Below, one piece after another: positions 13,829 through 47,611 of a DNA stretch of 64,000 bases (the first letter of the stretch is position 1; each line of letters opens with the position of its first letter). Source of the DNA: Armatimonadota bacterium. Its GTDB lineage: Bacteria; Armatimonadota; SYMT01. The translations under genes and the position numbers were made by a program. The notes below the pieces were generated by a model that searched no databases, was not told the origin of the DNA, and worked only from the letters and a program-made list of their open reading frames with translations. The DNA is taken from the NCBI GenBank assembly GCA_046292385.1, contig JBKBRF010000003.1, positions 74,845 to 138,844 of the forward strand. The letters are read 5' to 3'.

Positions 13829-13937
13829 AGGGCTAGGGTGGGCGCCTTGAAGACCGCCTCCGGCCGGCCGGACGCAGAAAACGCACGGAGCGATGCCCCG
13901 TGCGCCTCACGCGTCTCCCGTTTCCTCTGGGGGGTGG

Positions 13938-17036: not shown

Positions 17037-17156
17037 CCGGGGGTGCCGCTTGAAGTGCGGGCAGGGACGCGGACCCGGCGGGTGGACCCGGGGCAAGCGG
17101 CTGATGCGCTCGCCCCGGCTTCGGCAGAGGGTCTCTCGGCAGCAGCACGTGGGCCG

Positions 17157-29225: not shown

Positions 29226-31385
29226 ATGTCACCCGCTCCGACCCCCCGTCTGTTTCCGGCGCTCGCCGCCGCGGCGCTCCTGCTTCCGCTCGCGGCCTCC
29301 GCTCGCACCGACCGGGTCACCGGACGGACGCCGGAGCCGGAGCTGCTGGTGCAGGCGCTCGACCGCTCGCTCTCCACCGCGGTGCTCAGCGGCGACGGCC
29401 GCTGGCTGATCACCGGCAGCGGAGACCGGCGCGTGCAGGTCTGGGACGCGCGCACCGGCCTGCTGACGCGCAACCTCCCCACCGGCGGCCCGGTGGCGGA
29501 GGTCGACCTCTCTCCGGATGCTCGCGTGGTCGCCGCGGGTGGACTGGAGGGAGCGGTCCGGCTGTGGGACCGCGAAACCGGCGCGGAGCGGGCCGTGCTG
29601 AAGACCGACCCGCAGGGCACCCTCTCCGTCCGCTTCTCCCCCGCCGGTCCGCACCTGGCGACCGCGGACCACCGCGGCGTGAAGCTGTGGCACGCCGGCA
29701 CCGGCCGCTTCCTCCGGGCGCTGGAGGGCACGGGCGACTTTCTCTCCATCGGCCTCTATCCGGGCGTCGCCTTCTCCCCGGACGGAAAGCTCCTCGCCGC
29801 GCTTACCATGGAGGGCTGGGCGCTCTGGGATCCCGCCATCGGACGCAAGCTGCGCCAGCTCCCGAAGCAGCTGGACCGCGACACGGCGGTCGCCTTCTCG
29901 CGCGACGGCAAGCTGCTCGCGACCGCCCACGTCACCGCCCGGTACACGCTGCCGACTGCCGAGATCGCCTTCTGGAGCACCGCCACCGGAAAGCGGGCCC
30001 GCGCCGTCACCACCGGGCAGGACGCTCTGATTTCCCTCGCCTTCGCGCCGGACGACCGCACCCTGCTGGCCGGCACCCGCTTCTCCCGCGGCCTGCAGGT
30101 GTGGGACGTCCCCTCCGGAAAGCGGCTGCGGACCGTCGGAAGCCTCCCCGGAGCGGTCACCCTCTCCCGCGATGGCCGAACCCTGGCGGCGTGGAGCTCT
30201 GGATTCGGCGCTCCGCCGGAAGTCCGCACCTGGCGCGTCTCCGATTTGCGGACGATGAAGACAATGCCCCTGGCGGCCCTCCCCACGCCGGCGGAGCCGG
30301 TGAGCGTGCTGCAGGCGGCCGGTGCCGGTAGCACGCTCGTGGCGGTGGGCGAGACCGGCCGCGCCTGGCGCTGGGACGGCGAGCGGGCGCGGCTGGAGCG
30401 AGCCGTTTCCCTGCCGGGCGGCGCGTATCAGCGCGTGGTCCTCTCCGCGGACGGCGCCACCGCGGCCGCTGCGTCGGTCGACTGCCTGACGGTCTGGGAT
30501 ACCGCGACGGGGCGGGTGCGTCGGACCTTCCGCTTCACCGGGGAAGACCTCGGCGAGTCGGTCGCCGCCCTCACGCCCGACGGCCGCCGCGTCGCCCTCG
30601 CCGACCGTGCCTACCCGGGCGACCGGAACCTCCTGTACCTGCGCTGGTGGAGCGTGGAGACCGGCGAGCAGCAGGGCGAGCTCCGCTGGCCGGAGACGGT
30701 GCCGCTGGCGCTCGCCGCCTCCCGGGAGGAGCTGATCCTGACCGTCATCAACGTGGAGCGCGAGCGCCGCGAGCTGCGAGGGGTCGACCTCCGCACCGGC
30801 CAGCTCCGGCGTACCCAACCGCTCGAAGGCTTCCCCGGCAGCGCCCTCGGCGTTTCACCGGACGGAGCCACCGCCGCGGTGCCGATGCACGCGATCGTCG
30901 GTGACCACTGGGACTTCCCCGTCGACCTCTGGAGCCGGGAGCGCGACCGCCCCACGGCGCGGCTGCTCGGGTTCCGGCAGGTGCCGGAGAGCGTCACCTT
31001 CTCCACCTCCGGAGCGCGCGTTGCCGCTGGCGGCAGCGAGGGGACGGTGCGCGTCTGGAAGGCCGAAAGTGAGACCCCGCTCACTACCCTTCGCGCGCAC
31101 CGGCGGGAAGTGGCGGCCCTCGCCTTCGTGGGGGAGAATCGCCTCGCCACCGCGGGCGGAGACGGCGAGCTCGCGCTCTGGGAGGTGCCCGGCGGGAAGC
31201 GGCTGGCGACGCTGCTGGTCTTTCCCTCCGGCGAGTGGCTCGCCTACCGGCCGGACCACCGCTACACCGGCTCGCCGGGGATCGAGAAGCGCCTGGCGTG
31301 GAGGGTAGGCCGGCGGGTGGTCTCCGGCAGCAAATCTGGCGTGCGCTTCCGGGTGGAGAGGCTGCTCCCGCCACCGGGCGGTTGA
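29226..31385 (+). CDS. Secreted WD40-repeat protein
   Basis: Signal peptide; repeated FSPDG..LA....D..V.LWD. Confidence 0.85.
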   Translation: MSPAPTPRLFPALAAAALLLPLAASARTDRVTGRTPEPELLVQALDRSLSTAVLSGDGRWLITGSGDRRVQVWDARTGLLTRNLPTGGPVAEVDLSPDARVVAAGGLEGAVRLWDRETGAERAVLKTDPQGTLSVRFSPAGPHLATADHRGVKLWHAGTGRFLRALEGTGDFLSIGLYPGVAFSPDGKLLAALTMEGWALWDPAIGRKLRQLPKQLDRDTAVAFSRDGKLLATAHVTARYTLPTAEIAFWSTATGKRARAVTTGQDALISLAFAPDDRTLLAGTRFSRGLQVWDVPSGKRLRTVGSLPGAVTLSRDGRTLAAWSSGFGAPPEVRTWRVSDLRTMKTMPLAALPTPAEPVSVLQAAGAGSTLVAVGETGRAWRWDGERARLERAVSLPGGAYQRVVLSADGATAAAASVDCLTVWDTATGRVRRTFRFTGEDLGESVAALTPDGRRVALADRAYPGDRNLLYLRWWSVETGEQQGELRWPETVPLALAASREELILTVINVERERRELRGVDLRTGQLRRTQPLEGFPGSALGVSPDGATAAVPMHAIVGDHWDFPVDLWSRERDRPTARLLGFRQVPESVTFSTSGARVAAGGSEGTVRVWKAESETPLTTLRAHRREVAALAFVGENRLATAGGDGELALWEVPGGKRLATLLVFPSGEWLAYRPDHRYTGSPGIEKRLAWRVGRRVVSGSKSGVRFRVERLLPPPGG

Positions 31386-31393
31386 GGTTAGCT

Positions 31394-31684
31394 GCTTCTT
31401 CGCCTCGGGAGCAGCGTCGAGCCCGGGCGCCCGACCCCGCGCCCTTGTCGGCGGAGCCAGCCCTCCCGCGGCGGGTGCCCTCCGCGGCCTTTTCACGCGC
31501 CTTCGGCGCTAGCAGGCCGCTCCGGGAGTGCGTTTCGGTACGCTCTTCCCGCGCCACCGCCGTGATCTACCCTTCGGCTCTGCTCACGGGCTGGCTCCGC
31601 CGCCTTCGAGCGAACTCCCCTGGGCCCAGGGGAGTTCACAGGGGCCGTCCTCCGGTCCAGCCTGCGGCTGCACCTCCCGACGCC
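31394..31684 (-). ncRNA. Putative structured ncRNA or non-autonomous element, copy A
   Basis: Homologous to 47119-47413 in inverted orientation, with compensatory changes in several stems. Confidence 0.6.
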
Positions 31685-31865
31685 AGAGCGAGGCACGACT
31701 GAGTCCCCGGATGGGACCCTCTAATCCGGGGGGACAAACGCCGGGTTGTGTTGCTCCCGCTCCTCCCGCCCGCGGGGGCCCACCCCGGCCGAAGAGGGGT
31801 TCCTCTCTCTGCGTCGAACGAGACGGTACGCCGAAGCCCGCGTCGCCCGGCGTGAGGAGGTCCCG

Positions 31866-33386
31866 ATGCCGCACTCCCGATCCCGTCGCCAGTTCCTCGC
31901 CCGCACCGCCGCGGGAGGCGCGCTCGCCGCCGCGGGGGAGCTCTCGTTCCTCTCCGCGCTGCGGCCGATCGCCGCCGAGGAGACGCAGGTGAAGCCGGGG
32001 CACGTGCGACTCCGGCCGGAGATCGAGCCGCTGGTGCGGCTAGTGGAGGAGAGCCCGCGCGACCGCCTGCTGGAGCGGATGGCGGAGGAGATCCGCCGGG
32101 GCACCTCCTACCGCGAGGTGCTGGCCGCCCTGATGCTGGCGGGGGTGCGGAATATCAAGCCGCGGCCGGTCGGCTTCAAGTTCCACGCCGTGCTGGTGGT
32201 CAACTCCGCGCACCAGGCGAGCCTCGCCTCGGCCGATCGCGACCGCTGGCTGCCGCTCTTCTGGGCGCTCGACTACTTCAAAGGCTCCCAGGCCCGGGAC
32301 GTGCAGGAGGGGGACTGGACGATGTCCGCCCTTCCGGACTCCGCGCTCCCGTCGCCGGACCAGGCGCGCCGCCGCTTCGTGGAGGCGATGGACCGCTGGG
32401 ACGAGGAGGGGGCGGACGCCGCCGTCGCCCAGCTCGCGCGCACCGCGCCGGCCGGAGAAGTGTGGGAGATGTTCTGGCGCTACGGCGCGCGCGACTTCCG
32501 CGACATCGGGCACAAGGCGATCTACGTGGCGAACGCTTGCCGCACGCTCCAGGTGATCGGCCGGGAGCACTCGGAGCCGGTGCTGCGCTCGCTCGCGTTC
32601 GCCCTGCTGATGCGGGGGAACGTCAACCCCGCGGAGGCGGACGAGCCGGCCGACCGCCCCTGGCGCCGCAACCTGGAGCGGGCGAAGGAGCTCGGCCCCG
32701 GCGCGCTGCACGGCACGCGGGTCGACCCCGCCGCCACGCGGGAGCTGCTCTCCGCCCTCCACTCCGGCTCCCCGGACGACGCGGCGGGCCGCGCGGCGGC
32801 GCTGCTCAAGTCCGGCGTCGCTCCCGCCAGCGTGTGGGACGGCGTAATGGCCGGCGCGGGCGAGCTGCTGATGCGGAAGCCGGGGATCGTCGGCATCCAC
32901 TGCGTCACCACCGCCAACGCGCTCCACTACGCCTACAGCGCCGCCGCCTCGGACGAGACCCGCCTGATGATGCTGCTCCAGGGCGCCGCCTTCATGCCGC
33001 TGTTCCGCGAGGCGATGGGCGACCCGGGCGACGTGCGCCTCGACCGCCTGGAGCCGCTGGCGATGCAGAGCAGCGGTCCCGCCGCGGTGGAGGAGGTGCT
33101 GGCGGACGTGAGCCGGAGCCGCATGGACGCCGCCCGGAAGGCGCTCGGCTACCTGGAGGCGGGCGGCTCGGCGGAAGAGCTGCTCGCCGCGGCCCGGCGC
33201 CTGATCTTCCTGAAGGGCACCGACTCGCACGACTACAAGTTCAGCTCCGCCGCGCTGGAAGACTACTACCACGTCAGCCCGGAGTGGCGGAACCGCTTTC
33301 TCGCCTCCGCGATGTTCAACCTGCGCGGCGCCGGCGACCGCGACAACCCGCTCACCGGCCGCATCCGCGCCGCCCTCTCCGGCTGA
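31866..33386 (+). CDS. Tat-exported hypothetical protein
   Basis: SRRQFL Tat motif, GAGGAGG RBS; conserved-looking GFKFHAVL, DIGHKAI and DSHDYK. Confidence 0.8.
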   Translation: MPHSRSRRQFLARTAAGGALAAAGELSFLSALRPIAAEETQVKPGHVRLRPEIEPLVRLVEESPRDRLLERMAEEIRRGTSYREVLAALMLAGVRNIKPRPVGFKFHAVLVVNSAHQASLASADRDRWLPLFWALDYFKGSQARDVQEGDWTMSALPDSALPSPDQARRRFVEAMDRWDEEGADAAVAQLARTAPAGEVWEMFWRYGARDFRDIGHKAIYVANACRTLQVIGREHSEPVLRSLAFALLMRGNVNPAEADEPADRPWRRNLERAKELGPGALHGTRVDPAATRELLSALHSGSPDDAAGRAAALLKSGVAPASVWDGVMAGAGELLMRKPGIVGIHCVTTANALHYAYSAAASDETRLMMLLQGAAFMPLFREAMGDPGDVRLDRLEPLAMQSSGPAAVEEVLADVSRSRMDAARKALGYLEAGGSAEELLAAARRLIFLKGTDSHDYKFSSAALEDYYHVSPEWRNRFLASAMFNLRGAGDRDNPLTGRIRAALSG

Positions 33387-33413
33387 TGAGGTGCGTGGAG
33401 GTCTTCCCTGACG

Positions 33414-33461
33414 GGCGGTTGAAACCGCGGCAACTACGGCACGAAGTGCCCCTTCGGGCAC
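33414..33461. repeat. REP-like palindromic element
   Basis: GCGGTTGAAACCGC and AGTGCCCCTTCGGGCACT hairpins just after a stop codon. Confidence 0.45.
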
Positions 33462-33584
33462 TCGGCAGCGCTGGTACGGGCTTCCGGCTCAGGCCTGGCA
33501 GGGATAGTCGAACAGGGAAGTCGATCCCTCGCGGCCGCAACAGCCAAAACGTGGTAACCGGCTGCTGATCCACCCCACGAGCAG

Positions 33585-34712
33585 ATGTTCCCAGAGCAGC
33601 CGCCAGTCCGATCCGAGCCCGCCGACAACCCCCGGGAAGAGGCGCTGCGCCTCGTCGAGGAAGCGCAGCGCCGGCTGCCTCGCTCCATCGGAAATGTTCT
33701 GGATGGAACCGCTTTCCTGGACGGGCACCCGATCTCCGAACGCGAGTACCATCGAGCAGTCCGGGCGGCCATTCGCGATTACAGTCGTGCGATCGAGCTC
33801 GACCCCCAGTGTCTCGAAGCGTACCTCCGCCGGGCTCTGCTCTACAAGCGGATCGCGGGGGAACGGTGGCTCGATCGCCTGACCGTCAACCTGCTCTTTC
33901 GCCGGCGAGCAGAGGACTTCCCGGAACACCAACTCGCCGTTGCCGATGCCCGGAAAGTCCTGGCGCTGGAGCCGGCGGACTGCGGCGTCTACCTCACGAT
34001 CAGTCAGCTGCTCTCCGGAGAGGAGCGCGTCGACGCGCTGCGAAAGGGCCTGTCCCGGGCGGGGGGCTCGCGCGCGTATCGCGGGCTGCTCCAGGGCGAG
34101 CTTCCGCTTGCGCTGATGTTCGATGGGCAGGTCCGCAGCGCCATTCGGGAATGGCGGATCTTGCTTCGCGAGTCGTTCAGCGGCGTCTTCCACGCCGAGC
34201 AGCTCGCGCTCTGCTACTCCGCGTTGGAGATGCACCCGGAGACCGAGGCCGCATTCCGCCTCGCCCTTGGAATCTTTCGCCACTCCGGCGAAAGCAACTG
34301 GCTGCTGCTGCTGCCGACACCGGAGGAGGTGGCCTCCAACCTGGCGGAGGGCATCCTCCGCTGCCGCCTGCGGCGCGGCGACTGGGACGGCCTCCGAGCG
34401 AGGCTGCAGCTCTGCGCGCAGTACCTGCTGCCGGGGCGGGACTCCGGCTACCGGGCGCTCCTCTCCGCCCGGAGCGGGGAGCGCGTCGACGACCTCCCGG
34501 GCGTCCTGCGGCACCTGCGTCTCCGGGCGAAAGCCGACCCCCACCCGCGCTTCCTCGCGGGGCTGCTGCTCGAGAGCCTCGGCCGCCACCGGGAATCGCG
34601 GCGGCACTACCGCAGCTACCTGCGGGAGCTCACTCGCCACGAGGAGGAGCGCTGGTACCCATGGGAGCGGACCCACGCCACGCGCCGCCTCGTGGAGCCG
34701 GAGCCCGGCTAA
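33585..34712 (+). CDS. TPR-like hypothetical protein
   Basis: AIRDYSRAIELDPQCLEAYLRRA. Confidence 0.65.
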   Translation: MFPEQPPVRSEPADNPREEALRLVEEAQRRLPRSIGNVLDGTAFLDGHPISEREYHRAVRAAIRDYSRAIELDPQCLEAYLRRALLYKRIAGERWLDRLTVNLLFRRRAEDFPEHQLAVADARKVLALEPADCGVYLTISQLLSGEERVDALRKGLSRAGGSRAYRGLLQGELPLALMFDGQVRSAIREWRILLRESFSGVFHAEQLALCYSALEMHPETEAAFRLALGIFRHSGESNWLLLLPTPEEVASNLAEGILRCRLRRGDWDGLRARLQLCAQYLLPGRDSGYRALLSARSGERVDDLPGVLRHLRLRAKADPHPRFLAGLLLESLGRHRESRRHYRSYLRELTRHEEERWYPWERTHATRRLVEPEPG

Positions 34713-34743
34713 CCTGCCGGCAAGCACGGCATCGAACCGCAGC

Positions 34744-36015
34744 TCACGGTTCCGCCGGCGGAGGGGCCGTGAATCCGGCCCGATGGCGAGGCCTCAGCTG
34801 GCCGAAGACAATGTCGCCGCGGGCGCTCGCCTCGGGTGACCAGGGGACCTCCACGCTCCGCCCGCCGTCGTCGATCCCGTCCGGGCCGAGGCTGTAAACG
34901 AGAGGGCGGCCGTGCTGCAGCCGGTAGACAAGCGGGCGGCCCCACTCGTCCTGCGGGACCCCGCGGAGCCACTTTCCGCGGAGCTCCTCCCACGAGCCGG
35001 GGTAGTAGCCCTGCTCTCGCTGCCGGCGCTCCACAGCCAGCGCTGCGTAGAGCAGCCGGACCCTCGTGTGATCTAGCTGGACGAATGGCGCCCGGTGCTC
35101 CACGCAGAAGTACTCCGCCCACGGGTCGGCGGGCAGCGGAACGGTGACCTGGGCCGGGATCGGCTTCCCGGCTTCCTTCGCGACCACGCGGTAGTAGCCT
35201 TCCACCCGCGCAAGGGCCTCGCGGCGCGGCGAGAGGAGCAGCCGGAACTTCTCCAGCCGGCCGAAGTCACCGAAATCATCGAGGGCCGTCCACTGCCGCG
35301 GGAGCGCCTTGCCGTTCAGCTCCCGAAAGTACCGGGCCATATCCGCGGGAGCGATCGCCGCCTCCGTCTCCATCGCCTGTGCGACGGACGGCCAGCCGGC
35401 CTGCAGACGGTCGAGCCGCGCGAGCGCGGTCTCCAGCGCCGCCAGGGAGACGCGCGCGGGGAGCGCCTCCACCCGTGCCAGCCCGATCCCGGCGACCGCG
35501 GCCCCGACGAGCATTCCGAGGGTGCCCTCGCCTTCGCGGAGGCGGACGCCCAGCTCGATCGCGTCCAGCAGATTGCCCAGCGCTGCGTCGGCGTCTCCTC
35601 GGCGCTCGGCGAGGAGCGCCTCCGCGGCGAAGCACCGGGCCGCCTCACGAAACGCGGAGTGCTCCTCCTGGTACTGCGTCAGGCGAGAGAGCGGGACGCG
35701 CCACTCCCTGCCGTACGATGCGCGCAGTCGCTGGAGGGCCGGGCGCACCGGGGAGAGTGTCCTCTCCAGCTCGGCCGTGGTGCCCTCCGGCCAGGTGGCC
35801 GGGGTCGGGCCGAGGCTCCGCTGCACTTCGAAAGCAGCTCCCATCCCGTCGAGGAACCCGCGCGGCGGCGGCGCCGCATCCACGGGCAGCGTGACTTCCG
35901 GGACCGCGGTGACGTAACGCCAGTAGGCGGCGGACCCGGCGAGCACCGCCAGCAGCAGGCCGAAGAGGCTGCCGCCGACCCACAGCCCCGCTCGCCGCGC
36001 CCGCTTCGCTCCCAT
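34744..36015 (-). CDS. Membrane-anchored hypothetical protein with GspG-like C-terminal motif
   Basis: N-terminal TM; C-terminal PQDEWGRPLVY...VYSLGPDGIDDGG. Confidence 0.7.
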   Translation of the reverse strand: MGAKRARRAGLWVGGSLFGLLLAVLAGSAAYWRYVTAVPEVTLPVDAAPPPRGFLDGMGAAFEVQRSLGPTPATWPEGTTAELERTLSPVRPALQRLRASYGREWRVPLSRLTQYQEEHSAFREAARCFAAEALLAERRGDADAALGNLLDAIELGVRLREGEGTLGMLVGAAVAGIGLARVEALPARVSLAALETALARLDRLQAGWPSVAQAMETEAAIAPADMARYFRELNGKALPRQWTALDDFGDFGRLEKFRLLLSPRREALARVEGYYRVVAKEAGKPIPAQVTVPLPADPWAEYFCVEHRAPFVQLDHTRVRLLYAALAVERRQREQGYYPGSWEELRGKWLRGVPQDEWGRPLVYRLQHGRPLVYSLGPDGIDDGGRSVEVPWSPEASARGDIVFGQLRPRHRAGFTAPPPAEP

Positions 36016-36016
36016 C

Positions 36017-36379
36017 TCAGCGGCGCTTGCGGTGTTTGGCCAGCAGCTCCAGGAACTCGAGCGCCAGCTCCTGGTCCGCCGGCTCCAGCCCGCCGAAGAG
36101 CCGCTGCACCCGCTCGTCCTCCTCCGGCGCCGACTCCCCGCCGCCGCTGCCGCGGCGGGAGGCGTCGTCCATCGCCTCCTGCAGCAGGTCGAGCACGCTG
36201 AGCCGGAAGTAGCGGGCGAGCCGCTCCAACTCGTCCAGCGTGGGGCTGGTGCGCCCCGTCTCCAGCGCGCTGATGTAGCTGGCGCTGCGGTCGATGCCGG
36301 TGTGATCCACCAGCTCCTGCTGCGTGAGCCGCGCCCACTCCCGGCGGCGGCGCAGCGTCTTTCCGATCTCGATCGCCAT
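36017..36379 (-). CDS. XRE-family HTH transcriptional regulator
   Basis: LRRRREWARLTQQEL...SYISALETGRTSPT. Confidence 0.88.
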   Translation of the reverse strand: MAIEIGKTLRRRREWARLTQQELVDHTGIDRSASYISALETGRTSPTLDELERLARYFRLSVLDLLQEAMDDASRRGSGGGESAPEEDERVQRLFGGLEPADQELALEFLELLAKHRKRR

Positions 36380-36396
36380 CCGTGCTTATCCTCTCG

Positions 36397-37518
36397 CTAC
36401 CCCTTGCGGCCGACTCCGAACTGGTCGCCGTTGCGGACCGGCCGGTCGCCTTTCCAGACGATCTCTACCACCTTCTCGCTCTGCACCGGGCGGCCTTCCT
36501 CGTCGGAGAGCTCCGCGACGATCCGGCGGGTGCGGGTATCGATCACCTGGCCGGTGGAGGGGTAGGCGTAGCGGCCGTCCAGGCTGAAGGTGATCCAGCC
36601 GGGCTGGTCCCGCACCCCGATGCTGGCGACCTGCCGCGGCGGCTGCCGCGTGTTGTCGAACACGTGCATCCGGCTGTTGGCGGCGTCGCAGAGCCACACC
36701 TCCCGCTCGTCCGGCGTCAGGCCGACCCCGTGGCTGGGGCAGCCGTGGCGCTTGATCGGCCCCTTCTGGTAGCCGCTCACCTCTACCCGGTGGAGCACTC
36801 GCCCGGTGCGGAGGTCGCCGACCTCGAACCCGAGCAGCTCGTTCACGTTCACGTAGCAGCGCTCCCCGGCGCCGTCGACCGTGAACGGCCGGATCGAGTG
36901 GCCGAACGGGCCGACTTCCTTCACGATCTTCTGCGTGCCGGTATCGACCACCCGCAGCAGCGGCGAGCGCAGCCCCGCCAGGAAGGCGCGGGAGCCGTCC
37001 CGGCTCACCAGCGTGTTGTGCGCGCCGGAGTCCGGGTTGATCTGCGCGAGGACGTCGCCGGTGAGGGCATCGACGACGTTCCAGTGCGGCCCCTCGAACG
37101 AGGGGGAGTAGATCGTCTTACCGTCCGGCGTGATCGACATGCGGTCGCACCCGCCCGGGTACTCCCGGCTCCAGAGCACCTTCTCCGTGCGGAGGTCGAG
37201 GCACGCCATCCGCTTCGGGGTGGAGAGGTAGAGGCGGCCGGTGGCGGCGCTGGCGCAGATCCCCTTCACGTTTTCCGCCGGCTCTCCCGGAGCCACCGGC
37301 CAGGTGGGGATCCGCTTCACCCACCGGTGGCCGCGGTCCATGTCGTAGACCAGCACGCCGACGCCGCCCCACTCCGTGTAGTTGCGGATGCCCGGCGACG
37401 CCACGTAGAGCAGGCGCCGCTCGCCCTCGTCCTGGCCCGCGTCGAGCGGCCCCGCCGCGCCCGCCAGCACCGCGGCCGCTATGCCCAGCAGGAGCAAGCG
37501 TAGTCGAACCATCGTCAC
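36397..37518 (-). CDS. YncE/YVTN-like beta-propeller protein
   Basis: Signal peptide; TPDGK/SRDGS/TPDER repeats; HGCPSHG. Confidence 0.75.
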   Translation of the reverse strand: MTMVRLRLLLLGIAAAVLAGAAGPLDAGQDEGERRLLYVASPGIRNYTEWGGVGVLVYDMDRGHRWVKRIPTWPVAPGEPAENVKGICASAATGRLYLSTPKRMACLDLRTEKVLWSREYPGGCDRMSITPDGKTIYSPSFEGPHWNVVDALTGDVLAQINPDSGAHNTLVSRDGSRAFLAGLRSPLLRVVDTGTQKIVKEVGPFGHSIRPFTVDGAGERCYVNVNELLGFEVGDLRTGRVLHRVEVSGYQKGPIKRHGCPSHGVGLTPDEREVWLCDAANSRMHVFDNTRQPPRQVASIGVRDQPGWITFSLDGRYAYPSTGQVIDTRTRRIVAELSDEEGRPVQSEKVVEIVWKGDRPVRNGDQFGVGRKG

Positions 37519-37707
37519 CTCTCCCGGCCTTCACGTTTCACTTAGGCCCGCACCCAGGTTGCGTCCAGCCGGGGGGATTTCCTGTGCCGACCCTGGAAAC
37601 CCGGTGAGTAGCCGCATCGGGATTGTATTCAGAAACGGAGCAAGCATTCCGATACTCAGTAGCGGCGACGCACCGCCCTGGCGGCGCCGGACCTGGAGTC
37701 ACCCCCT

Positions 37708-38502
37708 GTGTTGAAGAAGCGGCCGGCCAAGCGCTCTCCCCTCAAAGACAAACCCCTCAACCTGCCCGGCGAGTCACTCGAGCGCCAGCAGAGCGATCTT
37801 CTGGAAGACAAGGTCTTCCCGCTCGCGATGGTCGCCCTCTTCGCCATCGTCATGGCGGCGATCGAATGGTGGCGGTGGTATGCGCAGATCCCTCCCAGTC
37901 CGGTGTCGTACACCCTGCTCGCAGCAATCGTCAGCGTGATCTTCTGGTACCGGTGGAGAAAGGTACTTCCGGAGGCGAAAGCGCTCTGGCTGGGCGTCCA
38001 GGGAGAGCGGTTGGTCGGCCAGGAGTTGGAAGAGCTTCGCTCCCACGGCTGCCAGGTGTACCACGACCTCGAAGGCGATGGCTTCAACCTGGATCACGTG
38101 GTGGTCTCCCGGCGCGGCATCGTAGTGATCGACACCAAGACGCTGCGCAAGCCGGCGGACCGGGACGCGACGATTACCTTCGACGGCGAGCGCATCCTGG
38201 TGGACGGCCGCGAGCCGGACCGTGACTACCTGGTGCAGGCCGCCGCGGCGCGACGCTGGCTCCGAAACCTGCTGCGCGAGAGCACGGGGCGCGACTTCCC
38301 GATCCGCAGCGCTATCGTCTTCCCCGGTTGGTTCGTCCAGAACCAGGCGCTCAAACGGAATGCCGAGGTGTGGGTCTTCAACCACAAGGCGCTGCTCAAG
38401 TTCATCCCGAACGAGCCGGAGGTGCTTCTGCCCAGCGACGTCGCGCTGGTCAGCCACCGGATCAAGCTGCACATCCGTGACCAGGCGGCCAAGCGGACCT
38501 GA
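37708..38502 (+). CDS. NERD (nuclease-related) domain membrane protein
   Basis: Two TM segments, then GVQGERLV...HDL...NLDHVVVSRRGIVVIDTK. Confidence 0.85.
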   Translation: MLKKRPAKRSPLKDKPLNLPGESLERQQSDLLEDKVFPLAMVALFAIVMAAIEWWRWYAQIPPSPVSYTLLAAIVSVIFWYRWRKVLPEAKALWLGVQGERLVGQELEELRSHGCQVYHDLEGDGFNLDHVVVSRRGIVVIDTKTLRKPADRDATITFDGERILVDGREPDRDYLVQAAAARRWLRNLLRESTGRDFPIRSAIVFPGWFVQNQALKRNAEVWVFNHKALLKFIPNEPEVLLPSDVALVSHRIKLHIRDQAAKRT

Positions 38503-38521
38503 TCCTGTCGCGCCTCTCTCG

Positions 38522-39511
38522 CTACCGGACGCGAGGGAGCGAAGCCGCCTCGGTGGAGGGCGCCTCTCCCACGCGGGGGAGCGCGGCGGGGTCGGTGGTG
38601 GGCTGTCCCGGCAGCGGGAGCCGCTTGAGCTCTTCGGTCAGCGACTCGATGCGCTCCACCGCGTCGCGGGTCGTCTCCCGAGTTTCGGTGTCCTGCTGGA
38701 GGAGGTCGGCGGAAATGCCGCGCAGCTCCGGCAGCACCTCCCGCAGCTCCACTGCCGGCCTCCGCGCGCCGATCTGGCAGAGGGCCGACGTGATTGCCTG
38801 GATCAGGCGGCCGCGGCTCCGGCGGCGGTGCAGGTAGAGGTAGGCGGCGGCGAGCACCAGGAGGACGAAGGCGGGGCCGAACAGCCGCCCGGGGCCGGTG
38901 GTGGCGATGAGCCCCACCAGCAGCAGCAGCACGCCCGTAAGGAACGCCGGTCCGAAGACGAGCTGCTTCCAGGCCGCGCCGCCCACCAGGCACGCTCGCA
39001 GCGCCTCCCGCAGGGGCGGGATCGCCGTCTCGTCCCCGATCTCCCCCAGCACCTGCGCGGCATTGATGCGGGAGTGCTCTTCCGGGTCCCAGAGCAGGCA
39101 CCGCCGCGGCAGCTCGCCGAGCCACGAGAGGATCGAGCCAGGCTGCTCGTTCCGCGGCGGCGGCTGCAGGAGCGCCGCCACCGCGGCGATCCCCTCCGGT
39201 CCGAAGTGGCGCAGCCCCTGCGCCGCCCGATGCGCCCGGACCGAGTCGCCCCACCGCACTCCCCGCAGCAGCGCCTCCAGCCCGGAAGCGCCCAGCGCTG
39301 CGAAGGCGGCGGTCGCCTCCGCCCGCACGGCTGCGTCTTCATCGGCTAGCGCTTCCCAGAGGGCGTCGGTCGCGTCCTCGCCGCCGAGGCGCAGCTCCCG
39401 CACCACCCGCAGACGCTCGGTGGGGTCGCCTCTCCGCAGGCGGCCGGTGAGGGTGGCTACCTGCATCCGGCGCACCCGGCGCTTCCGGTACTCGGTCTTC
39501 GAACTGGCCAT
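38522..39511 (-). CDS. HEAT-repeat two-TM protein, array paralog 8
   Basis: HEAT units, TM hairpin, tail LPRVGEAPSTEAASLPRVR. Confidence 0.8.
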   Translation of the reverse strand: MASSKTEYRKRRVRRMQVATLTGRLRRGDPTERLRVVRELRLGGEDATDALWEALADEDAAVRAEATAAFAALGASGLEALLRGVRWGDSVRAHRAAQGLRHFGPEGIAAVAALLQPPPRNEQPGSILSWLGELPRRCLLWDPEEHSRINAAQVLGEIGDETAIPPLREALRACLVGGAAWKQLVFGPAFLTGVLLLLVGLIATTGPGRLFGPAFVLLVLAAAYLYLHRRRSRGRLIQAITSALCQIGARRPAVELREVLPELRGISADLLQQDTETRETTRDAVERIESLTEELKRLPLPGQPTTDPAALPRVGEAPSTEAASLPRVR

Positions 39512-39534
39512 CCGCTGGTTCTCCGCGCCGGGCC

Positions 39535-40503
39535 TCAGACCCGCGGCAGGGCGCGGGCGTCCGGCGTGGGCGCCTCGCCGACCCGGGGGAGGGAGGTGCC
39601 CACGCCGGAGACGCAGCCCGGCAGCGGCAGGTTCGACCCCTCCGTGAGCGCCTCGATTCGCTCCGCCGCCGCCCGCGAGGCCTCCCGCGCCTTCGGGTCG
39701 CTCTGAAGGCGGTCGCGCTCGATCGACTGCAGGTCCGGCAGCAGCGTGCGCAGCTCCGGAGCGGGGCAGCGCTCCCCGATCCGCAGCAGGGCGTCCACGA
39801 TCGACTGTCGCGCGAGGCTCTGCCTGCGCTGAGAAGTGAAGTACTGGAACGCAATGTTGATGATACTCATCGCAACCATGGCGAGTGAGCCTTGGAAGCC
39901 CAGCCAAACCTGTCCGAGGAGGGTTAGAGGCATGACCAGCACCGCGACCAGGAGCACCGTCCAGCCGATCACCACCTGGCGGCGTCCTGATCGTCCCAGC
40001 AACTGCCCGCGCAGCACCTGCATGAGCGGCTCCACCGCACGCTGGTCCCCGAATTCTCCCAGGGCTTCCACGGCCGCGTGTCGAGCCGCTGGATCGTGGA
40101 GCGCCCGGCAGAGGAGCGGGACCGACTGCGGCAGGGCCAGCCGCTGGAGCGATTTCACCGCCGCTACGCGCACGCCGTCGTCCGCCTGGCCCAGCGCGTC
40201 TTCCAGCGGCCCCAGCGCCTCCGGCCCGAAGAACCCGAGCGCCCAGGCCGCCTCCCGCCGCTCGCTGGCGTGACGGCTCCGCACCCGCACCGCCAGGCTC
40301 TCGAGTGCGACGGGGCCGATCCGGGCGAGCGACTTTGCCGACGCGGCACGGACCTCTTCCTCGTCGTCGCGCAGCGTCTCCAGCAGGCACGGCACCGCGG
40401 CGCGGCCGAAGTCTCCCAGCGCTCGCGCAGCCGCCTTTCGCTCCGCCTTTGCGCGCGACCGGAGCTGAATCCTCAGGTTCTGAAGCTGATCCGTGGGAGT
40501 CAT
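39535..40503 (-). CDS. HEAT-repeat two-TM protein, array paralog 7
   Basis: LRDDEEEVRAASA; TM hairpin; tail LPRVGEAPTPDARALPRV. Confidence 0.85.
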   Translation of the reverse strand: MTPTDQLQNLRIQLRSRAKAERKAAARALGDFGRAAVPCLLETLRDDEEEVRAASAKSLARIGPVALESLAVRVRSRHASERREAAWALGFFGPEALGPLEDALGQADDGVRVAAVKSLQRLALPQSVPLLCRALHDPAARHAAVEALGEFGDQRAVEPLMQVLRGQLLGRSGRRQVVIGWTVLLVAVLVMPLTLLGQVWLGFQGSLAMVAMSIINIAFQYFTSQRRQSLARQSIVDALLRIGERCPAPELRTLLPDLQSIERDRLQSDPKAREASRAAAERIEALTEGSNLPLPGCVSGVGTSLPRVGEAPTPDARALPRV

Positions 40504-40567
40504 CCGCCGCTCCGAGGCCGCTGCCGGCAGGGCGCCGGTCCGTTACAGTTCGCGCTCCACGCGCCCC

Positions 40568-41314
40568 TCACCTCACCCGCGGCAGCGTGTCCGCCTCCGG
40601 CGTGGGAGCCTCTCCCACGCGCGGGAGGGTGGCCTCGTGCTGCGTCCCGGAGGCCGGCAGCGGGAGGCTTTTCAGGTTGTCGGTAAGCTCCCGAATACGC
40701 CGTGCGGCCTTCTCGGAAACAGGCCGGGTGCTCGGGTCTTGCTGCACCCAGCCGCTCCCGATCACCCGCAGATCCCGAATCACCTGCCGAAGCTCCGGCG
40801 TGGGATGCCGCTCCCCAATCCGCACCAGCGCGTCGATCAACGCGCGCCTTCCCTGCCCCCGTCCACGCCAGTCGAGAACCCTGCCGATCAAAGCCTGTCC
40901 CAGCCCGGTCAGGATGCCGACCAACCAATACTCCTTCAGATCCAACAGCCTATGCGCTATCACGGAGGCGTTAATGATGACGAGCATGGTCGCGAGGCAC
41001 ATCAGCCAGCCAAAGGCCAGGTGCCGCCAGGCGGAGCGGCCCACGAGGCTCGCGCGCAGTGCTTCCTGCAGCGGTCCAATCGCGCGTTCGTCTCCCACCT
41101 CCGCCAGCGCCTCGGCCGCCGCGAACCGGACGCGCGGCTCGCGGTCCCGCAGTGCCCGGCAGAGGGGCGGTACCACTTCCGGCCGCGGCAGACGCCGGAG
41201 CGCCTCCACGGCGGCCAGCCGCGCTCTGGCGCACGGCGATCGGAGCGCCGTCTCCAGCGCCGGCAGGTCCGGAAGCGGTGCAGGCTCGGTGAGCGTGGCC
41301 AGGGGAGAGAGCAC
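40568..41314 (-). CDS. HEAT-repeat two-TM protein, array paralog 6 (short N-terminus)
   Basis: GTG start with no clear RBS; fewer HEAT units; tail LPRVGEAPTPEADTLPRVR. Confidence 0.75.
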   Translation of the reverse strand: MLSPLATLTEPAPLPDLPALETALRSPCARARLAAVEALRRLPRPEVVPPLCRALRDREPRVRFAAAEALAEVGDERAIGPLQEALRASLVGRSAWRHLAFGWLMCLATMLVIINASVIAHRLLDLKEYWLVGILTGLGQALIGRVLDWRGRGQGRRALIDALVRIGERHPTPELRQVIRDLRVIGSGWVQQDPSTRPVSEKAARRIRELTDNLKSLPLPASGTQHEATLPRVGEAPTPEADTLPRVR

Positions 41315-41343
41315 GGGAGTTCTCGCAAGAAGCAGTTGGCCGG

Positions 41344-42441: not shown

Positions 42442-42471
42442 GGCTGCGCTCGAAGGAGCCTCACGCAACTT

Positions 42472-45493: not shown

Positions 45494-45522
45494 AACTCTA
45501 CTCTACCGGAACCGTGTCGCTC

Positions 45523-46509: not shown

Positions 46510-46572
46510 GGTCGGTGACGGGCCGTCCGGTCTCCGTTACTGAAACGGCGAAATCCCTCCGTCGTTGCGGGG

Positions 46573-46986: not shown

Positions 46987-47118
46987 GCGTTCGTTGCAAG
47001 CACCCGGGTCAAGGAAGGGTGCCCTCGAGAGGGTTGTTCGCCAGCCGTGCGCCAAATCCCGCCGCGAATCGCGATGAAATGGCATGGCCAGTGCTTCGGA
47101 TCCGCACCAGAAACCCGC

Positions 47119-47413
47119 GGCGTCCGCAGGTGCAGCCGTTAGGCTGCGCCGGAGGATGCCACCTGTGACCACCCCTTGGGAAAGGGGTGGTTGCTCGAAG
47201 GGCCGGGGGGCAGCCCGTGAACCCTGCCTCTGGCCCAGTAGAGCGCAGTGGCGCGGGTACGGCAAACCGGAAGGCACGCCTGGAGCGGCCTGCTAGCGGA
47301 GCGAAGCGGAGTGTGAAAAGGCCGCGGAGGGCCTTCGTCGCGGGAGGGCTGCCCCCCGGCACAAGGGCACGGGGTCGGACCTCCGACACCAACGCTGGTC
47401 CTCGGCAAGAGGC
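47119..47413 (+). ncRNA. Putative structured ncRNA or non-autonomous element, copy B
   Basis: Homologous to 31394-31684; 15-bp long-range stem 47202-47216/47346-47360; hairpin with a GGGA tetraloop at 47168-47191. Confidence 0.6.
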
Positions 47414-47611
47414 AGAATCCTGCGGCACACGGCTGCTCATCCCGAGGCCCTGCTGGCGCGGGGCGCGAAAGCAAGCCTCCGTACTGGGGGCAAGCATTCG
47501 CACTCCAGGGACCAGACCGAGGCGTCGTCTGGTATACCCTTGCCCGGATTGGTTCTCGACAGAGATGCTGTAGGCCAGCGATAGCTGTCGAAGAGAAGCA
47601 CATCGCACCCG

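What the first reader, a model, noticed from the sequence alone, without database searches (positions are those of the whole stretch)
31394..31684. ~290-nt intergenic element in two diverged copies with compensatory base changes (copy A, minus strand)
Seen: the reverse complement of 31394-31684 aligns with 47119-47413. Shared blocks include GGCGTC..AGGTGCAGCCG..AGGCTG..CCGGAGGA, CCTGTGA, GCTCGAAGG, CAGCCCGTGA, GTGGCGCGGG, GGAGCGGCCTGCTAGCG, GTGAAAAGGCCGCGGAGGGC, CGCGGGAGGGCTG and ACAAGGGC.CGGGGTCGG. A 15-bp long-range stem is perfect in both copies but differs in sequence: CGGCGGAGCCAGCCC/GGGCTGGCTCCGCCG (31449-31463/31588-31602) versus GCCGGGGGGCAGCCC/GGGCTGCCCCCCGGC. A second hairpin also covaries (GAACTCCCCTG..CAGGGGAGTTC versus GACCACCCCTT..AAGGGGTGGTT). 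Inference: a large multi-stem RNA under structural selection (novel ncRNA, ribozyme or mobile RNA). I do not recognise it as RNase P, tmRNA, SRP or a known riboswitch.
Basis: partly seen in the sequence, partly recalled or inferred. Interest (0 to 1): 0.85.

Follow-up and report, generated by a model that had tools for sequence, protein, structure and literature searches.

The report
Dispersed structured 300-base repeat family
The two look-alike stretches belong to a family of well over a hundred ~300-base non-coding elements scattered between this bacterium's genes; all keep the same intricate fold on one strand, so they look like an undescribed, probably mobile, structured RNA of unknown function.

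Summary

The two copies are not a pair. They belong to a family with 124 near-full-length copies by nhmmer and 143 covariance-model matches in this 7.0-Mb genome. No Rfam family matches.

The fold is strongly supported:
- 95.8% of cells are paired.
- 29 of 44 pairs show compensatory changes.
- 0 of 500 shuffles reach the observed values.

The fold is strand-specific, with 229 G-U against 33 A-C cells.

All copies are intergenic, with no bias towards any gene family or gene orientation. All 26 doublets are head-to-head. One subfamily has sharp ends, forms 397-nt or ~793-nt units, and has no terminal inverted repeats or target duplications. An IS110-like element inserts at the apex of hairpin P2.

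The family occurs in 3 of 6 other genomes of the same taxonomic family, in 0 of 144 other sampled genomes of the phylum, and in 3 metagenome contigs.

Best reading: an undescribed, non-autonomous mobile structured element. Transcription and the mobilising enzyme are unknown.

The parts
31391..31692 (-). Copy A, the whole repeated unit (~300 nt). It lies 6 nt after the stop of a +strand WD40-repeat gene (29226-31385) and upstream of a +strand 546-aa ORF (31746-33386, no Pfam match), so it is antisense to both neighbours.
   Evidence: Repeat-coverage profile against the whole genome. Sequence. Neighbours from a GC3-filtered ORF list and Pfam.
31430..31645 (-). Copy A, the conserved core covered by covariance model R1 (P2 hairpin, closing helix, long-range helix, inner junction with hairpins).
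   Evidence: cmsearch gives 192.3 bits, E 3.6e-38, full model 1-223.
31643..31684 (-). P1: a 5' hairpin with an outer stem (GGCGUC.../...GACGGCC), a purine-rich internal loop carrying GGAGG on both sides, and an inner stem CAGCC/GGCUG with a 3-4-nt loop. A short subfamily replaces it with a 17-nt hairpin.
   Evidence: Sequence and alignment A2. Pair counts for this hairpin on 40 copies: 78.9% paired, 46 cells with double changes against 17.5 in shuffles, 0 of 500 shuffles as high.
31612..31637 (-). P2: an 11-bp hairpin (GAACUCCCCUG...CAGGGGAGUUC). In other copies its apex is the insertion point of an IS110-like element.
   Evidence: Helix 1: 9 pairs, 6 with compensatory changes, 95.7% paired. 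Insertions shown.
31588..31611 (-). 5' strands of the closing helix GCUC (31611-31608) and of the 15-bp long-range helix (31602-31588).
   Evidence: Helices 2 and 3. Helix 3 has 15 pairs, 13 with compensatory changes. Helix 2 carries a U-G pair kept in 66 of 67 sequences. One further covarying pair extends helix 2.
31441..31463 (-). 3' strands of the long-range helix (31463-31449) and of the closing helix GGGC (31444-31441), joined by the conserved ACAA/ACUA linker.
31464..31587 (-). Inner domain enclosed by the long-range helix. It holds a variable ~30-nt segment and the conserved blocks GGCGCGGGAAGAGC, CCCGGAGCGGCCUGCUAGCG, GUGAAAAGGCCGCGGAGGGC and CGCGGGAGGGCUG, with nested helices.
   Evidence: Helices 4-9 (helix 8: 5 of 5 pairs with compensatory changes; helix 9: 2 of 2). 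Conserved columns.
31391..31440 (-). 3' tail: GCGGGGUCGG, a small hairpin, the conserved GACGCUGC, and a terminal hairpin (GCUGCU...AGCAGC) whose sequence differs between copies. Similarity to other copies ends here.
   Evidence: 3'-anchored listing of copies, coverage profile, single-sequence fold. The pairing of this tail was not resolved.
47105..47415 (+). Copy B, the whole repeated unit. It starts with the family's 5' boundary motif CCAGAAACC. It sits in a divergent intergenic region between a 4HBT thioesterase gene (minus strand; probable ATG at 46986, inferred) and a +strand 368-aa ORF (47612-48718, no Pfam match).
47159..47379 (+). Copy B, the conserved core covered by covariance model R1.
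   Evidence: cmsearch gives 206 bits, E 5.3e-41, full model.

Best explanation
Copies A and B are two ordinary members of an undescribed family of ~300-nt intergenic elements.
- a 5' hairpin P1;
- hairpin P2;
- a short closing helix;
- a 15-bp long-range helix that encloses a junction of smaller hairpins with highly conserved unpaired blocks.

Shown: the family has at least 124 copies in this genome, occurs in some related genera, and keeps its fold through compensatory, strand-specific changes. Its copies lie between unrelated genes in either orientation. It spreads as units with sharp ends.

Inferred: it is a non-autonomous mobile element that propagates through a strand-specific single-stranded form (transcript or ssDNA). 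The fold is the cis-acting structure recognised by an enzyme supplied in trans. Within that reading, the mechanism I think most likely is DNA-level, IS200/IS605- or REPIN-like mobilisation, for these reasons:
- no reverse transcriptase gene was found;
- the best-defined subfamily has subterminal hairpins, no terminal inverted repeats and no target duplication;
- that subfamily has a conserved CTGT next to its left end.

Head-to-head doublets would then be left-end-to-left-end insertions that afterwards spread as composite units. The P2 hairpin has secondarily become the landing site of an IS110-like element.
For: Copy number:
- BLAST finds 40 near-full-length matches at 73-82% identity.
- nhmmer finds 156 hits, 124 of them above 140 bits.
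- The covariance model finds 143 matches with only 150 candidates scored.

Fold:
- RNAalifold on 40 copies predicts 50 pairs, 19 with compensatory changes.
- On 69 copies, 95.8% of cells pair, 29 of 44 pairs have changes on both sides, 0 of 500 shuffles are as high, and slid controls give 35-49% paired.

Strand:
- G-U 229 against A-C 33 of 2953 paired cells.
- Two U-G pairs are kept in 66 of 67 and 63 of 66 sequences.

Selection: between nearest neighbours there are 119 compensatory double changes against 78 one-sided pair-breaking changes. Substitution rate is 0.094 in paired columns against 0.213 in unpaired columns.

No link to genes:
- The 364 flanking ORFs form no dominant family; the largest real cluster has 7.
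- For the 68 single copies with neighbours called on both sides: 21 sense in tandem regions, 19 antisense, 16 in divergent regions, 12 in convergent regions.

Mobility:
- 20 units of one subfamily share a left end (ACTACTCACCGCGAGAATCTTG...) and a right end (...GGTTGCGGCATCAGCCGCGCTGTG) in unrelated flanks.
- 6 of the 20 are 397-413 nt (one module), 10 are 786-818 nt (two modules head-to-head), and 4 have other lengths.
- The left flank ends in CTGT in 14 of 20. There are no terminal inverted repeats and no matching flanking duplications.
- Nearest-neighbour identity ranges from 76.5 to 98.6% (median 86%), so some copies are recent.
- Copies are clumped: variance/mean is 2.9 in 50-kb bins, and one 159-kb contig holds 19 where 2.8 are expected.

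Doublets: 26 of 26 are head-to-head, and 4 more such pairs occur in another genus.

No RT: PF00078 gives 0 candidates.

Y1 (HUH) transposase genes are present in the genome.
Against: - No enzyme is tied to the element. The two good Y1 transposase genes are flanked by unrelated REP-like hairpins or ~100-nt repeats, and their flanks show no similarity to the element's ends. Y1 genes also occur in relatives that lack the element.
- No empty site or presence/absence polymorphism was obtained, so movement is inferred from dispersal and shared ends only.
- Defined ends were found for one subfamily only. The subfamily of copies A and B has just a 5' boundary motif (GCAGCCAGAAACC) and a variable 3' hairpin.
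- A 300-nt multi-junction fold with conserved unpaired blocks is far more than any known HUH transposase needs (own knowledge). The excess of compensatory changes between nearest neighbours fits a functional RNA at least as well.
- In the low-copy relatives, copies mostly run in the same direction as flanking genes: G006 7 of 7, all in two tandem arrays, and G005 about 9 of 13 by my reading.
- Transcription is untested.
- Gene calls are a crude GC3-filtered ORF list.
Confidence: 0.5

Rival explanations
1. A family of genuine functional RNA genes or RNA modules. Examples would be a protein-binding or sequestering RNA, or an mRNA processing/stability module that works when transcribed in sense. 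Dispersal would be secondary, and the fold would be kept because each copy's RNA is used by the cell.
For: - The conserved architecture is complex, with invariant unpaired blocks.
- Wobble pairs are strand-specific.
- Between nearest neighbours, compensatory double changes (119) outnumber pair-breaking single changes (78).
- The fold is conserved across four genomes of one family and in metagenome contigs despite low sequence similarity: nhmmer gives 38-49 bits for the copies in G006 and G005 and 64-110 for the metagenome copies, where the covariance model gives 58-147.
- In G006 all 7 copies, and in G005 about 9 of 13, run in the same direction as flanking genes, partly as tandem arrays between genes of one strand.
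- GGAG/GGA motifs are frequent (seen by eye).
Against: - In the own genome, orientation relative to genes is random: 21 sense against 19 antisense in tandem regions.
- No conserved promoter-like sequence lies upstream. Similarity stops at the 5' boundary motif, and no sigma-70-like promoter or intrinsic terminator was found at either window copy.
- In tight doublets the two 5' ends are only 5-20 nt apart, which leaves no room for separate promoters.
- 124-143 copies, sharp-ended composite units and clumping are typical of selfish spread.
- The counts in relatives are small and come from a few arrays, so they are not independent.
Confidence: 0.25
2. Orphan guide-RNA scaffolds. The fold would be an omega-RNA- or bridge-RNA-like scaffold of an RNA-guided transposon nuclease or recombinase. 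Its protein gene would be lost, unassembled or of an unrecognised family, and the copies would be protein-less derivatives, as many HEARO copies are.
For: - Size, complexity, multi-copy dispersal and mobile-element behaviour resemble HEARO/IscB omega-RNAs (own knowledge).
- One subfamily has IS200/IS605-like ends: subterminal hairpins, no terminal inverted repeats or target duplication, and a conserved tetranucleotide at the left flank.
- The fold is strand-specific.
Against: - No TnpB: PF07282 and PF01385 both give 0 hits, and the controls rang in 8 of 14 genomes.
- No IscB RRXRR domain, though the control did not ring, so this test is weak.
- No HEARO match in the genome, even at E up to 1, and none in the window.
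- No recurrent neighbouring protein in the own genome, in G005/G006 or in the metagenome contigs.
- No LE-RE pair encloses an ORF-sized interior; the largest unit is 885 nt.
Confidence: 0.1
3. A purely DNA-level repeat, either a large REP/BIME-like protein-binding site or simply a landing pad for the IS110-like element. Its complementarity would be maintained by DNA processes (one arm copied onto the other), with no role for a single-stranded fold.
For: - Copies are intergenic and dispersed, and form inverted doublets.
- An IS110-like element inserts into it, as IS110-family elements do with REPs (abstracts of PMC12288879 and PMC11208160, seen in the search listings).
- The genome is rich in other small repeats.
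Against: - Arm-to-arm copying predicts perfect Watson-Crick stems and symmetric decay. Instead G-U outnumbers A-C seven to one, and two U-G pairs are nearly invariant.
- The helix arms are about 125 nt apart and enclose a conserved, asymmetric, non-palindromic core.
- Doublet partners are only 71-87% identical (median 78%), so doublets are not hairpins.
Confidence: 0.1
4. A cis-regulatory leader or riboswitch controlling the downstream gene.
For: Copy B lies upstream of, and runs in the same direction as, a +strand ORF. Several copies in G005 and G006 precede co-oriented genes.
Against: - Copy A is antisense to both neighbours.
- Orientation is random across the 68 single copies with neighbours called on both sides.
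- Neighbouring genes are functionally unrelated.
- No riboswitch family matches.
Confidence: 0.02

Closest known systems
REP / BIME / REPIN elements mobilised by RAYT (Y1 HUH) transposases
   Same: High-copy intergenic repeats that often sit as inverted doublets. They have no terminal inverted repeats or target duplications, and a conserved tetranucleotide lies beside one end. IS110-family elements use them as insertion targets (abstracts of PMC2817692, PMC3733652 and PMC12288879, seen in the listings; the rest is own knowledge). All these traits were seen here.
   Different: REPs are 20-40-nt simple palindromes, whereas this unit is ~300 nt with a multi-helix junction and conserved unpaired blocks. 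Doublet partners here are only ~78% identical and do not form one hairpin. The RAYT-like genes of this genome are flanked by other repeats, not by this element.
IS200/IS605-family non-autonomous derivatives (PATEs)
   Same: The best-defined subfamily has subterminal hairpins at both ends, no terminal inverted repeats, no target duplication, a conserved flank tetranucleotide at the left end, and a strand-specific structure. Features of the IS200/IS605 family are recalled from own knowledge.
   Different: No TnpA with matching ends and no TnpB were found in the genome. The structured cargo is much larger and better conserved than the terminal hairpins such elements need.
HEARO / IscB omega-RNA and TnpB omega-RNA
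   Same: Large (200-300 nt), intricately folded RNAs that are linked to mobile elements and often present in many protein-less copies (own knowledge).
   Different: There is no match to Rfam HEARO. No IscB or TnpB gene was found, and no adjacent effector gene was found at any copy examined.
Classical bacterial MITEs and ERIC-type elements (Correia/NEMIS, ERIC, RUP, BOX)
   Same: Non-coding, sub-kilobase, multi-copy and intergenic, and they can fold when transcribed (own knowledge; abstract of PMC3184786 in the listing).
   Different: No terminal inverted repeats and no target-site duplications were found. The fold is not one long hairpin but several independent helices, with a long-range helix and a strand-specific wobble pattern.
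Orphan large structured bacterial ncRNAs (raiA, OLE, GOLLD, ROOL)
   Same: Size, covariation-supported complexity and unknown function (own knowledge).
   Different: Those occur in one or a few copies per genome, at conserved loci or in prophages. This element has 124-143 dispersed copies, doublets and sharp-ended composite units. None of those families matches it.

Membership tests
Any Rfam 15 family | A covariance-model score at or above the family's gathering threshold | tested here: not met
   There were 0 matches in the whole 64-kb window at gathering thresholds. The best permissive hits on 31200-31900 scored 20 bits or less, with E 0.7 or more.
HEARO / IscB omega-RNA | A match to RF02033 | tested here: not met
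   0 matches in the own genome at E up to 1, and none in the window.
HEARO / IscB omega-RNA | An IscB/IsrB gene (RRXRR domain) next to at least some copies | tested here: inconclusive
   PF14239 gave 0 hits in the own genome, but the control rang in none of the 14 reference genomes, so the test has no demonstrated power. No recurrent neighbouring protein was found.
TnpB omega-RNA (IS200/IS605, IS607) | A TnpB gene (RuvC OrfB_IS605 domain plus Zn ribbon) in the genome, with the RNA overlapping its 3' end and the right end of the element | tested here: not met
   PF07282 gave 0 hits and PF01385 gave 0 hits. The controls rang in 8 of 14 genomes for each.
IS200/IS605-type non-autonomous element (PATE) | No terminal inverted repeats, no target duplication, subterminal hairpins, and a conserved tetranucleotide beside the left end | tested here: met
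   This holds for the 20 units of the L subfamily only. The left flank is CTGT in 14 of 20 and the right end is ...CTGTG in 16 of 20 (my counts from the listing). The hairpins are GAGAATCT..AGATTCTC near the left end and GCGGC..GCCGC near the right end. No inverted termini and no matching flank repeats were seen.
IS200/IS605-type non-autonomous element (PATE) | A Y1 (HUH) transposase gene carried between the same ends somewhere | tested here: not met
   The genome gives 5 Y1_Tnp hits, 2 of them strong. Their flanks show no similarity to the element or its ends: nhmmer gives no hit at E up to 1, and blastn-short gives only exact matches of 12 nt or less.
IS110 bridge RNA | Encoded in the non-coding end of an IS110/IS1111 element beside the DEDD recombinase gene | tested here: not met
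   The one fully assembled IS110-like copy (contig 6) contains no element. Instead, IS110-like ends and a ~290-nt miniature derivative interrupt the element at the apex of hairpin P2.
MITE | Terminal inverted repeats | tested here: not met
   The left and right termini of the 20 L-subfamily units are not inverted copies of each other. The subfamily of copies A and B starts with GCAGCCAGAAACC and ends in a variable hairpin.
MITE | Target-site duplication flanking each copy | tested here: not met
   The flanks of the 20 units show no copy-specific direct repeat. The recurring CTGT varies independently on the two sides.
REP / BIME / REPIN | A short (20-40 nt) imperfect palindrome as the unit | tested here: not met
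   The unit is ~300 nt with at least 9 helices.
REP / BIME / REPIN | Inverted doublets, and a RAYT gene flanked by the repeat | tested here: inconclusive
   The doublet part is met: 26 of 26 doublets are head-to-head. The RAYT part is not: the Y1 genes are flanked by other repeats.
Retroelement-linked RNA (retron, group II intron, DGR, SINE-like) | A reverse transcriptase gene in the genome | tested here: not met
   PF00078 gave 0 candidates in a genome that is 98% complete. The control rang in 3 of 14 genomes.
Riboswitch / cis-regulatory leader | A constant position upstream of co-oriented genes of related function | tested here: not met
   Orientation is random (21 sense, 19 antisense, 16 divergent, 12 convergent), and neighbours are unrelated.

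The most novel reading that the evidence does not exclude
The fold is the working part of an RNA-first mobile system. It would be a guide- or ribozyme-type scaffold, comparable in role to omega-RNAs or bridge RNAs. It would direct its own DNA-level copying or insertion through an effector supplied in trans, from a family that today's profile libraries do not recognise. This would account for several features together:
- strand-specific selection on a 300-nt multi-junction fold;
- sharp ends without inverted repeats or target duplications;
- head-to-head doublets;
- lineage-restricted bursts (143 matches in one genome against 2-15 in related genera).
Probability: 0.12. Interest if true: 0.9.

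Novelty: new variant of a known kind. Interest (0 to 1): 0.66.

Why it matters
Dispersed intergenic repeats are common. This one combines traits that rarely occur together:
- the size and covariation-supported complexity of a ribozyme- or guide-class RNA;
- more than a hundred copies in one genome;
- strand-specific conservation of the fold;
- composite head-to-head units;
- no recognisable mobilising gene.

HEARO looked much the same before it was identified as the IscB guide RNA (own knowledge). A family like this is therefore a concrete place to look for an unrecognised RNA-dependent or structure-dependent mobility mechanism, or for a new protein-binding RNA.

It also has practical value. 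The family, together with the IS110-like element that targets its P2 hairpin, explains much of the repeat content and assembly fragmentation of this genome. It also gives a natural example of an IS110-family element using a large structured repeat, rather than a short REP, as its landing site.

Tried and rejected
- Pattern scan of genome contigs. It was re-sent as the reverse complement.
- Viral contigs pattern scan: 0 matches.
- BLAST against plasmids and phages, distant mode: no match.
A 223-position core model was built instead, so P1 and the 3' tail are not in the model.
- Expression: no RNA holder is listed for this DNA.
- Laying contigs of three DNA runs and one 'RNA? (probably DNA)' run on 30000-48500 gave only short fragmentary contigs. 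No listed joint lies at either element's boundaries, so no empty site and no boundary information was obtained.
- Recurrent neighbour genes: clustering 364 flanking ORFs gave no dominant family. The largest cluster (9) is an artefact of over-long ORFs that run into the element.
- Link to Y1 transposases: none by sequence and none by co-occurrence across the 7 genomes of the family.
- Link to IS110 as cargo: rejected, because the IS inserts into the element. IS110 genes occur in 3 of 7 family genomes, without correlation to the element.
- Replication-strand bias. Among the 72 single copies, 31 have the folded strand on the C-rich strand and 8 on the G-rich strand, and 33 lie where skew is below 0.01 (30-kb flanks; p = 0.0003). 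However, 7 of the 31 come from one cluster on contig 40, the skew is weak throughout, and the ratio is 27:12 with 60-kb flanks. I treat it as unexplained, not as evidence.
- The array of 7-8 same-strand copies on contig 40 is not a segmental duplication; only the elements themselves are similar.
- A 5'-3' closing helix between P1 and the 3' tail was suggested by the folds of copies A and B. It could not be confirmed: duplex energies are uninformative at 70% GC, and mutual information is confounded by subfamily structure.
- Phylum. I first read the lineage as planctomycete-like from PSD/PSCyt-type domains in a relative. Earlier notes of this scan call the genome an uncultured Armatimonadota (unchecked). 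I make no claim about the phylum.
- Literature. Three full-text searches and passages of PMC2864571 and of bioRxiv 10.64898/2026.10.21.760802 turned up no description of this element. Only listings, abstracts and the quoted passages were seen.
Full report
**The observation**

The reverse complement of 31394-31684 aligns with 47119-47413 through a series of identical blocks.
- The 15-bp long-range helix is at exactly the stated coordinates (31602-31588 with 31463-31449). It is perfect in both copies with different sequences.
- The hairpin at 31637-31612 covaries in the same way.
The opposite strand folds at -165 (z = -4.5).
- A coverage profile against the whole genome places the repeated units at about 31391-31692 and 47105-47415.

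**Not two copies but a large family**
- BLAST of copy A against the window's own assembly (7.04 Mb, 91 contigs, 69% G+C) gave 47 matches, 40 of them near full length at 73-82% identity. Only 40 of 187 first-look candidates were scored.
- Two rounds of nhmmer gave 156 hits at E up to 1e-5, 124 of them above 140 bits.
- A covariance model of the 223-nt core (R1) gave 143 matches with only 150 candidates scored.
- Pairwise identity among the 124 copies has a median of 76%. Nearest-neighbour identity has a median of 86% (76.5-98.6%), and 15 copies have a neighbour at 95% or more. The family is therefore old, with some recent copying.

**The fold**

RNAalifold on 40 copies predicted 50 pairs, 19 with compensatory changes. 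I then aligned 69 copies to the model: 42 from this genome, 23 from three related genomes and 4 from metagenome contigs. On that alignment:
- 95.8% of 2910 cells form standard pairs.
- 29 of 44 pairs change on both sides, in 486 cells.
- The covariation score is 0.447, against 0.128 in shuffles; 0 of 500 shuffles are as high on any measure.
- Sliding the partners by 1-3 columns drops pairing to 35-49% and the score to 0.04-0.09.
- The alignment was fitted to the model, so it leans towards this structure. However, the MAFFT-only alignment shows the same helices.

The architecture, 5' to 3', is:
- P1, a hairpin with a purine-rich internal loop. It is weaker but supported: 78.9% paired, and 46 cells changed on both sides against 17.5 in shuffles.
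- P2, a 9-11-bp hairpin.
- A GCUC/GGGC closing helix, extended by one covarying pair.
- A 15-bp long-range helix in which 13 of 15 pairs covary.
- An inner domain of nested helices with invariant unpaired blocks (GGCGCGGGAAGAGC, GCUAGCG, GUGAAARGGCC, CGGAGGGC, CGCGGGAGGGCUG).
- A 3' tail with one or two hairpins.

**Which strand, and is it selected?**
- In paired cells G-U occurs 229 times and A-C 33 times, out of 2953.
- Two U-G pairs are kept in 66 of 67 and 63 of 66 sequences. On the other strand these would be A-C mismatches.
- In 53 nearest-neighbour comparisons, 119 differences in helices are compensatory double changes and 69 are one-sided but keep the pair. 78 are one-sided and break the pair, and 17 are two-sided and break it.
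- Paired columns change at 0.094 per site and unpaired columns at 0.213.

This is not what arm-to-arm DNA copying or neutral decay would give. Sequence alone cannot say whether that form is RNA or ssDNA.

**Context**

Genes were called with a crude GC3 filter: 4691 ORFs covering 79% of the genome.
- All copies lie between these ORFs.
- The 124 copies form 98 loci: 72 single copies and 26 doublets. All 26 doublets are head-to-head, with the 5' ends facing each other and gaps of 5-100 nt. None is tail-to-tail or tandem.
- Doublet partners are 71-87% identical (median 78%), no closer than random copies.
- Of the 68 single copies with neighbours called on both sides, 21 are sense and 19 antisense in tandem regions, 16 lie in divergent regions and 12 in convergent regions.
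- The 364 flanking ORFs form no dominant family.
- In the window, copy A lies antisense between a WD40-repeat gene and an ORF with no Pfam match. Copy B lies between a 4HBT thioesterase gene and another ORF with no Pfam match.
- Copies are clumped: one 159-kb contig holds 19 where 2.8 are expected, and variance/mean is 2.9 in 50-kb bins.

**Ends and units**

Copies fall into subfamilies that also differ outside the core.

The subfamily of copies A and B usually starts with GCAGCCAGAAACC a few bases before P1 and ends after a variable terminal hairpin.

A second subfamily ('L') has sharply defined ends: a left end ACTACTCACCGCGAGAATCTTG... and a right end ...GGTTGCGGCATCAGCCGCGCTGTG. I found 20 such left-right pairs:
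- 6 are 397-413 nt and hold one module.
- 10 are 786-818 nt and hold two modules head-to-head, together with a conserved spacer and a conserved extension.
- 4 have other lengths (545, 609, 638 and 885 nt); the 885-nt one holds an IS110-like fragment.
- No pair encloses an ORF-sized interior.
- The termini are not inverted repeats, and there is no copy-specific flanking duplication.
- The left flank ends in CTGT in 14 of 20 and the right end in CTGTG in 16 of 20 (my counts from the listing).
- Hairpins sit about 12 and 7 nt inside the two ends (my reading of the listing).

Many flanks carry CTGT-rich short repeats. The motif density is 1.44 per kb in element flanks, against 0.88 in all intergenic DNA. 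Earlier notes of this scan describe dispersed 7-base repeat tracts in this genome.

**An IS110-like element lands in P2**

The genome has one fully assembled IS110-family element on contig 6 (DEDD domain).
- Its two ends recur 45-74 times, while its interior occurs once.
- 99 of its 153 BLAST pieces lie within 300 nt of a contig end, so it is a main cause of assembly breaks.
- 14 of the 156 element hits abut such an end within 60 nt.
- In 9 of these 14, the element breaks at model position 131-141, which is the apex of P2.
- On contig 40 a ~290-nt miniature derivative, with both IS ends joined, sits precisely between the two arms of P2.
- In the window, a 39-nt fragment of one IS end lies at 47447-47485, just after copy B.

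The element is therefore a target of this IS, not its cargo. IS110-family elements are known to insert into REP sequences (abstracts of PMC12288879 and PMC11208160, seen in the listings).

**Distribution**
- BLAST found nothing in 40 relatives.
- The covariance model found the family in 3 of the 6 other genomes of the same taxonomic family: 15, 8 and 2 matches. The three without a match are 95%, 80% and 69% complete.
- It was found in 0 of 144 other genomes sampled from the phylum.
- A specific pattern found three metagenome contigs with four true copies, at 111-147 bits.
- In the 9.1-Mb relative G005, four head-to-head pairs and two same-strand pairs were seen. In G006 the copies form same-strand arrays between genes of the same strand.
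- Neighbouring genes there are again unrelated.

**Comparison with known systems**
- No Rfam family matches.
- No HEARO match, no TnpB (two domain models, working controls) and no reverse transcriptase were found. The IscB test lacked a working control.
- Y1 transposase genes exist, but they are flanked by other repeats and show no similarity to the element's ends. They also occur in relatives without the element.
- The element fails the MITE criteria (terminal inverted repeats, target duplication) and the REP size criterion.
- It shares with REP/BIME/REPIN and IS200/IS605-type derivatives the lack of inverted termini and duplications, a flank tetranucleotide, subterminal hairpins, strand specificity, inverted doublets and use as an IS110 target.

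**Reading**

The shown facts are copy number, dispersal without gene association, shared sharp ends, composite units, a strand-specific selected fold and a lineage-restricted burst. Together they make a non-autonomous mobile structured element the best description.

How it moves is inferred. With no reverse transcriptase in the genome, and with IS200/IS605-like ends in the best-defined subfamily, I favour DNA-level, single-strand-based mobilisation by an enzyme supplied in trans. No enzyme has been tied to it, however.

The main rival is that the RNA itself is functional. That rival fits the complexity of the fold, the excess of compensatory changes and the mostly sense orientation in low-copy relatives.

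A guide-RNA scaffold of an unrecognised system remains possible.

**Relation to earlier notes of this scan**

One earlier report (e1-1434673) described two ~285-base stretches 5 kb apart on another piece of the same genome. It read them as 'two copies of an undescribed structured RNA, not a jumping element'. That fits the pair I find on contig 4 (165351 and 170581), so the scan probably saw this family before on other DNA; I could not see that report's coordinates. My data agree on the fold. They contradict 'two copies' and 'not a jumping element'.

**Limits**
- Gene calls are crude.
- The model covers only the core.
- No expression data and no empty sites were available.
- The phylum is not established here.

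Noticed in passing
window 47447-47485 (repeat signal over about 47420-47520); own genome contig 6:73799-75384: A fragment of one end of an IS110-family element lies just 3' of copy B. The two ends of the full element recur 45-74 times in the genome while its interior occurs once, and 99 of its 153 BLAST pieces lie within 300 nt of contig ends. A ~290-nt protein-less derivative (both ends joined) also exists. Both forms insert at the apex of hairpin P2 of the structured repeat.
   Followed up: partly
own genome contig 22:55627-55965 and flanks; 41 BLAST pieces genome-wide, none in the window: A RAYT-like Y1 transposase gene is flanked by inverted ~100-nt repeats that recur about 40 times in the genome. 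This is a separate REPIN-like family. A second Y1 gene (contig 51:25920-26261) is flanked by inverted hairpins of the form GCGAGGGGTT-GAAA-ACCCCTCGC.
   Followed up: partly
own genome contig 40:13643-39998: Seven to eight copies of the element, all on the minus strand, are spaced about 3.3 kb apart in a region with unusually strong G>C skew (G 0.40-0.42, C 0.29-0.31). The DNA between them is not duplicated, so this is not a segmental repeat.
   Followed up: partly
flanks of L-subfamily units, e.g. own genome contig 8:52786-52835 and 56489-56535: CTGT-rich short tandem-like motifs (TCTGTGT / CCCTCTGT) often border the units, and a recurring ...GTCCCTCTGTGTCGAAAAA follows four right ends. This may be the 7-base repeat family that earlier notes of this scan describe in the genome. 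Whether it is the insertion target was not resolved.
   Followed up: partly
window 31700-31735 (minus strand), also upstream of copies on contigs 8, 17 and 51: A small hairpin of the type GTCCCC-TTCG-GGGGAC followed by TCAG recurs just 5' of several copies. It looks like an independent short repeat.
   Followed up: no
72 single copies, own genome: The folded strand tends to lie on the locally C-rich strand: 31 against 8 where |GC skew| is 0.01 or more in 30-kb flanks. The skew is weak, one cluster contributes 7 of the 31, and the ratio falls to 27:12 with 60-kb flanks.
   Followed up: partly
locus L090 (G005 contig 3:822000-841999), 14327-14896: In a related genome, two tandem copies of the element sit immediately upstream of cas1 (13223-14173, minus strand; Cas2 at 12510-12974), with a Cas6e-type gene (PF08798) about 2 kb further upstream at 16950-17618.
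   Followed up: no
window 41344-46509 (minus strand) and 48849-53453: A run of at least four paralogous ~330-370-aa HEAT/PBS-lyase-repeat genes lies in series on the minus strand. Next to copy B is a 1534-aa protein with HEAT repeats and a squalene-hopene-cyclase-like domain.
   Followed up: no
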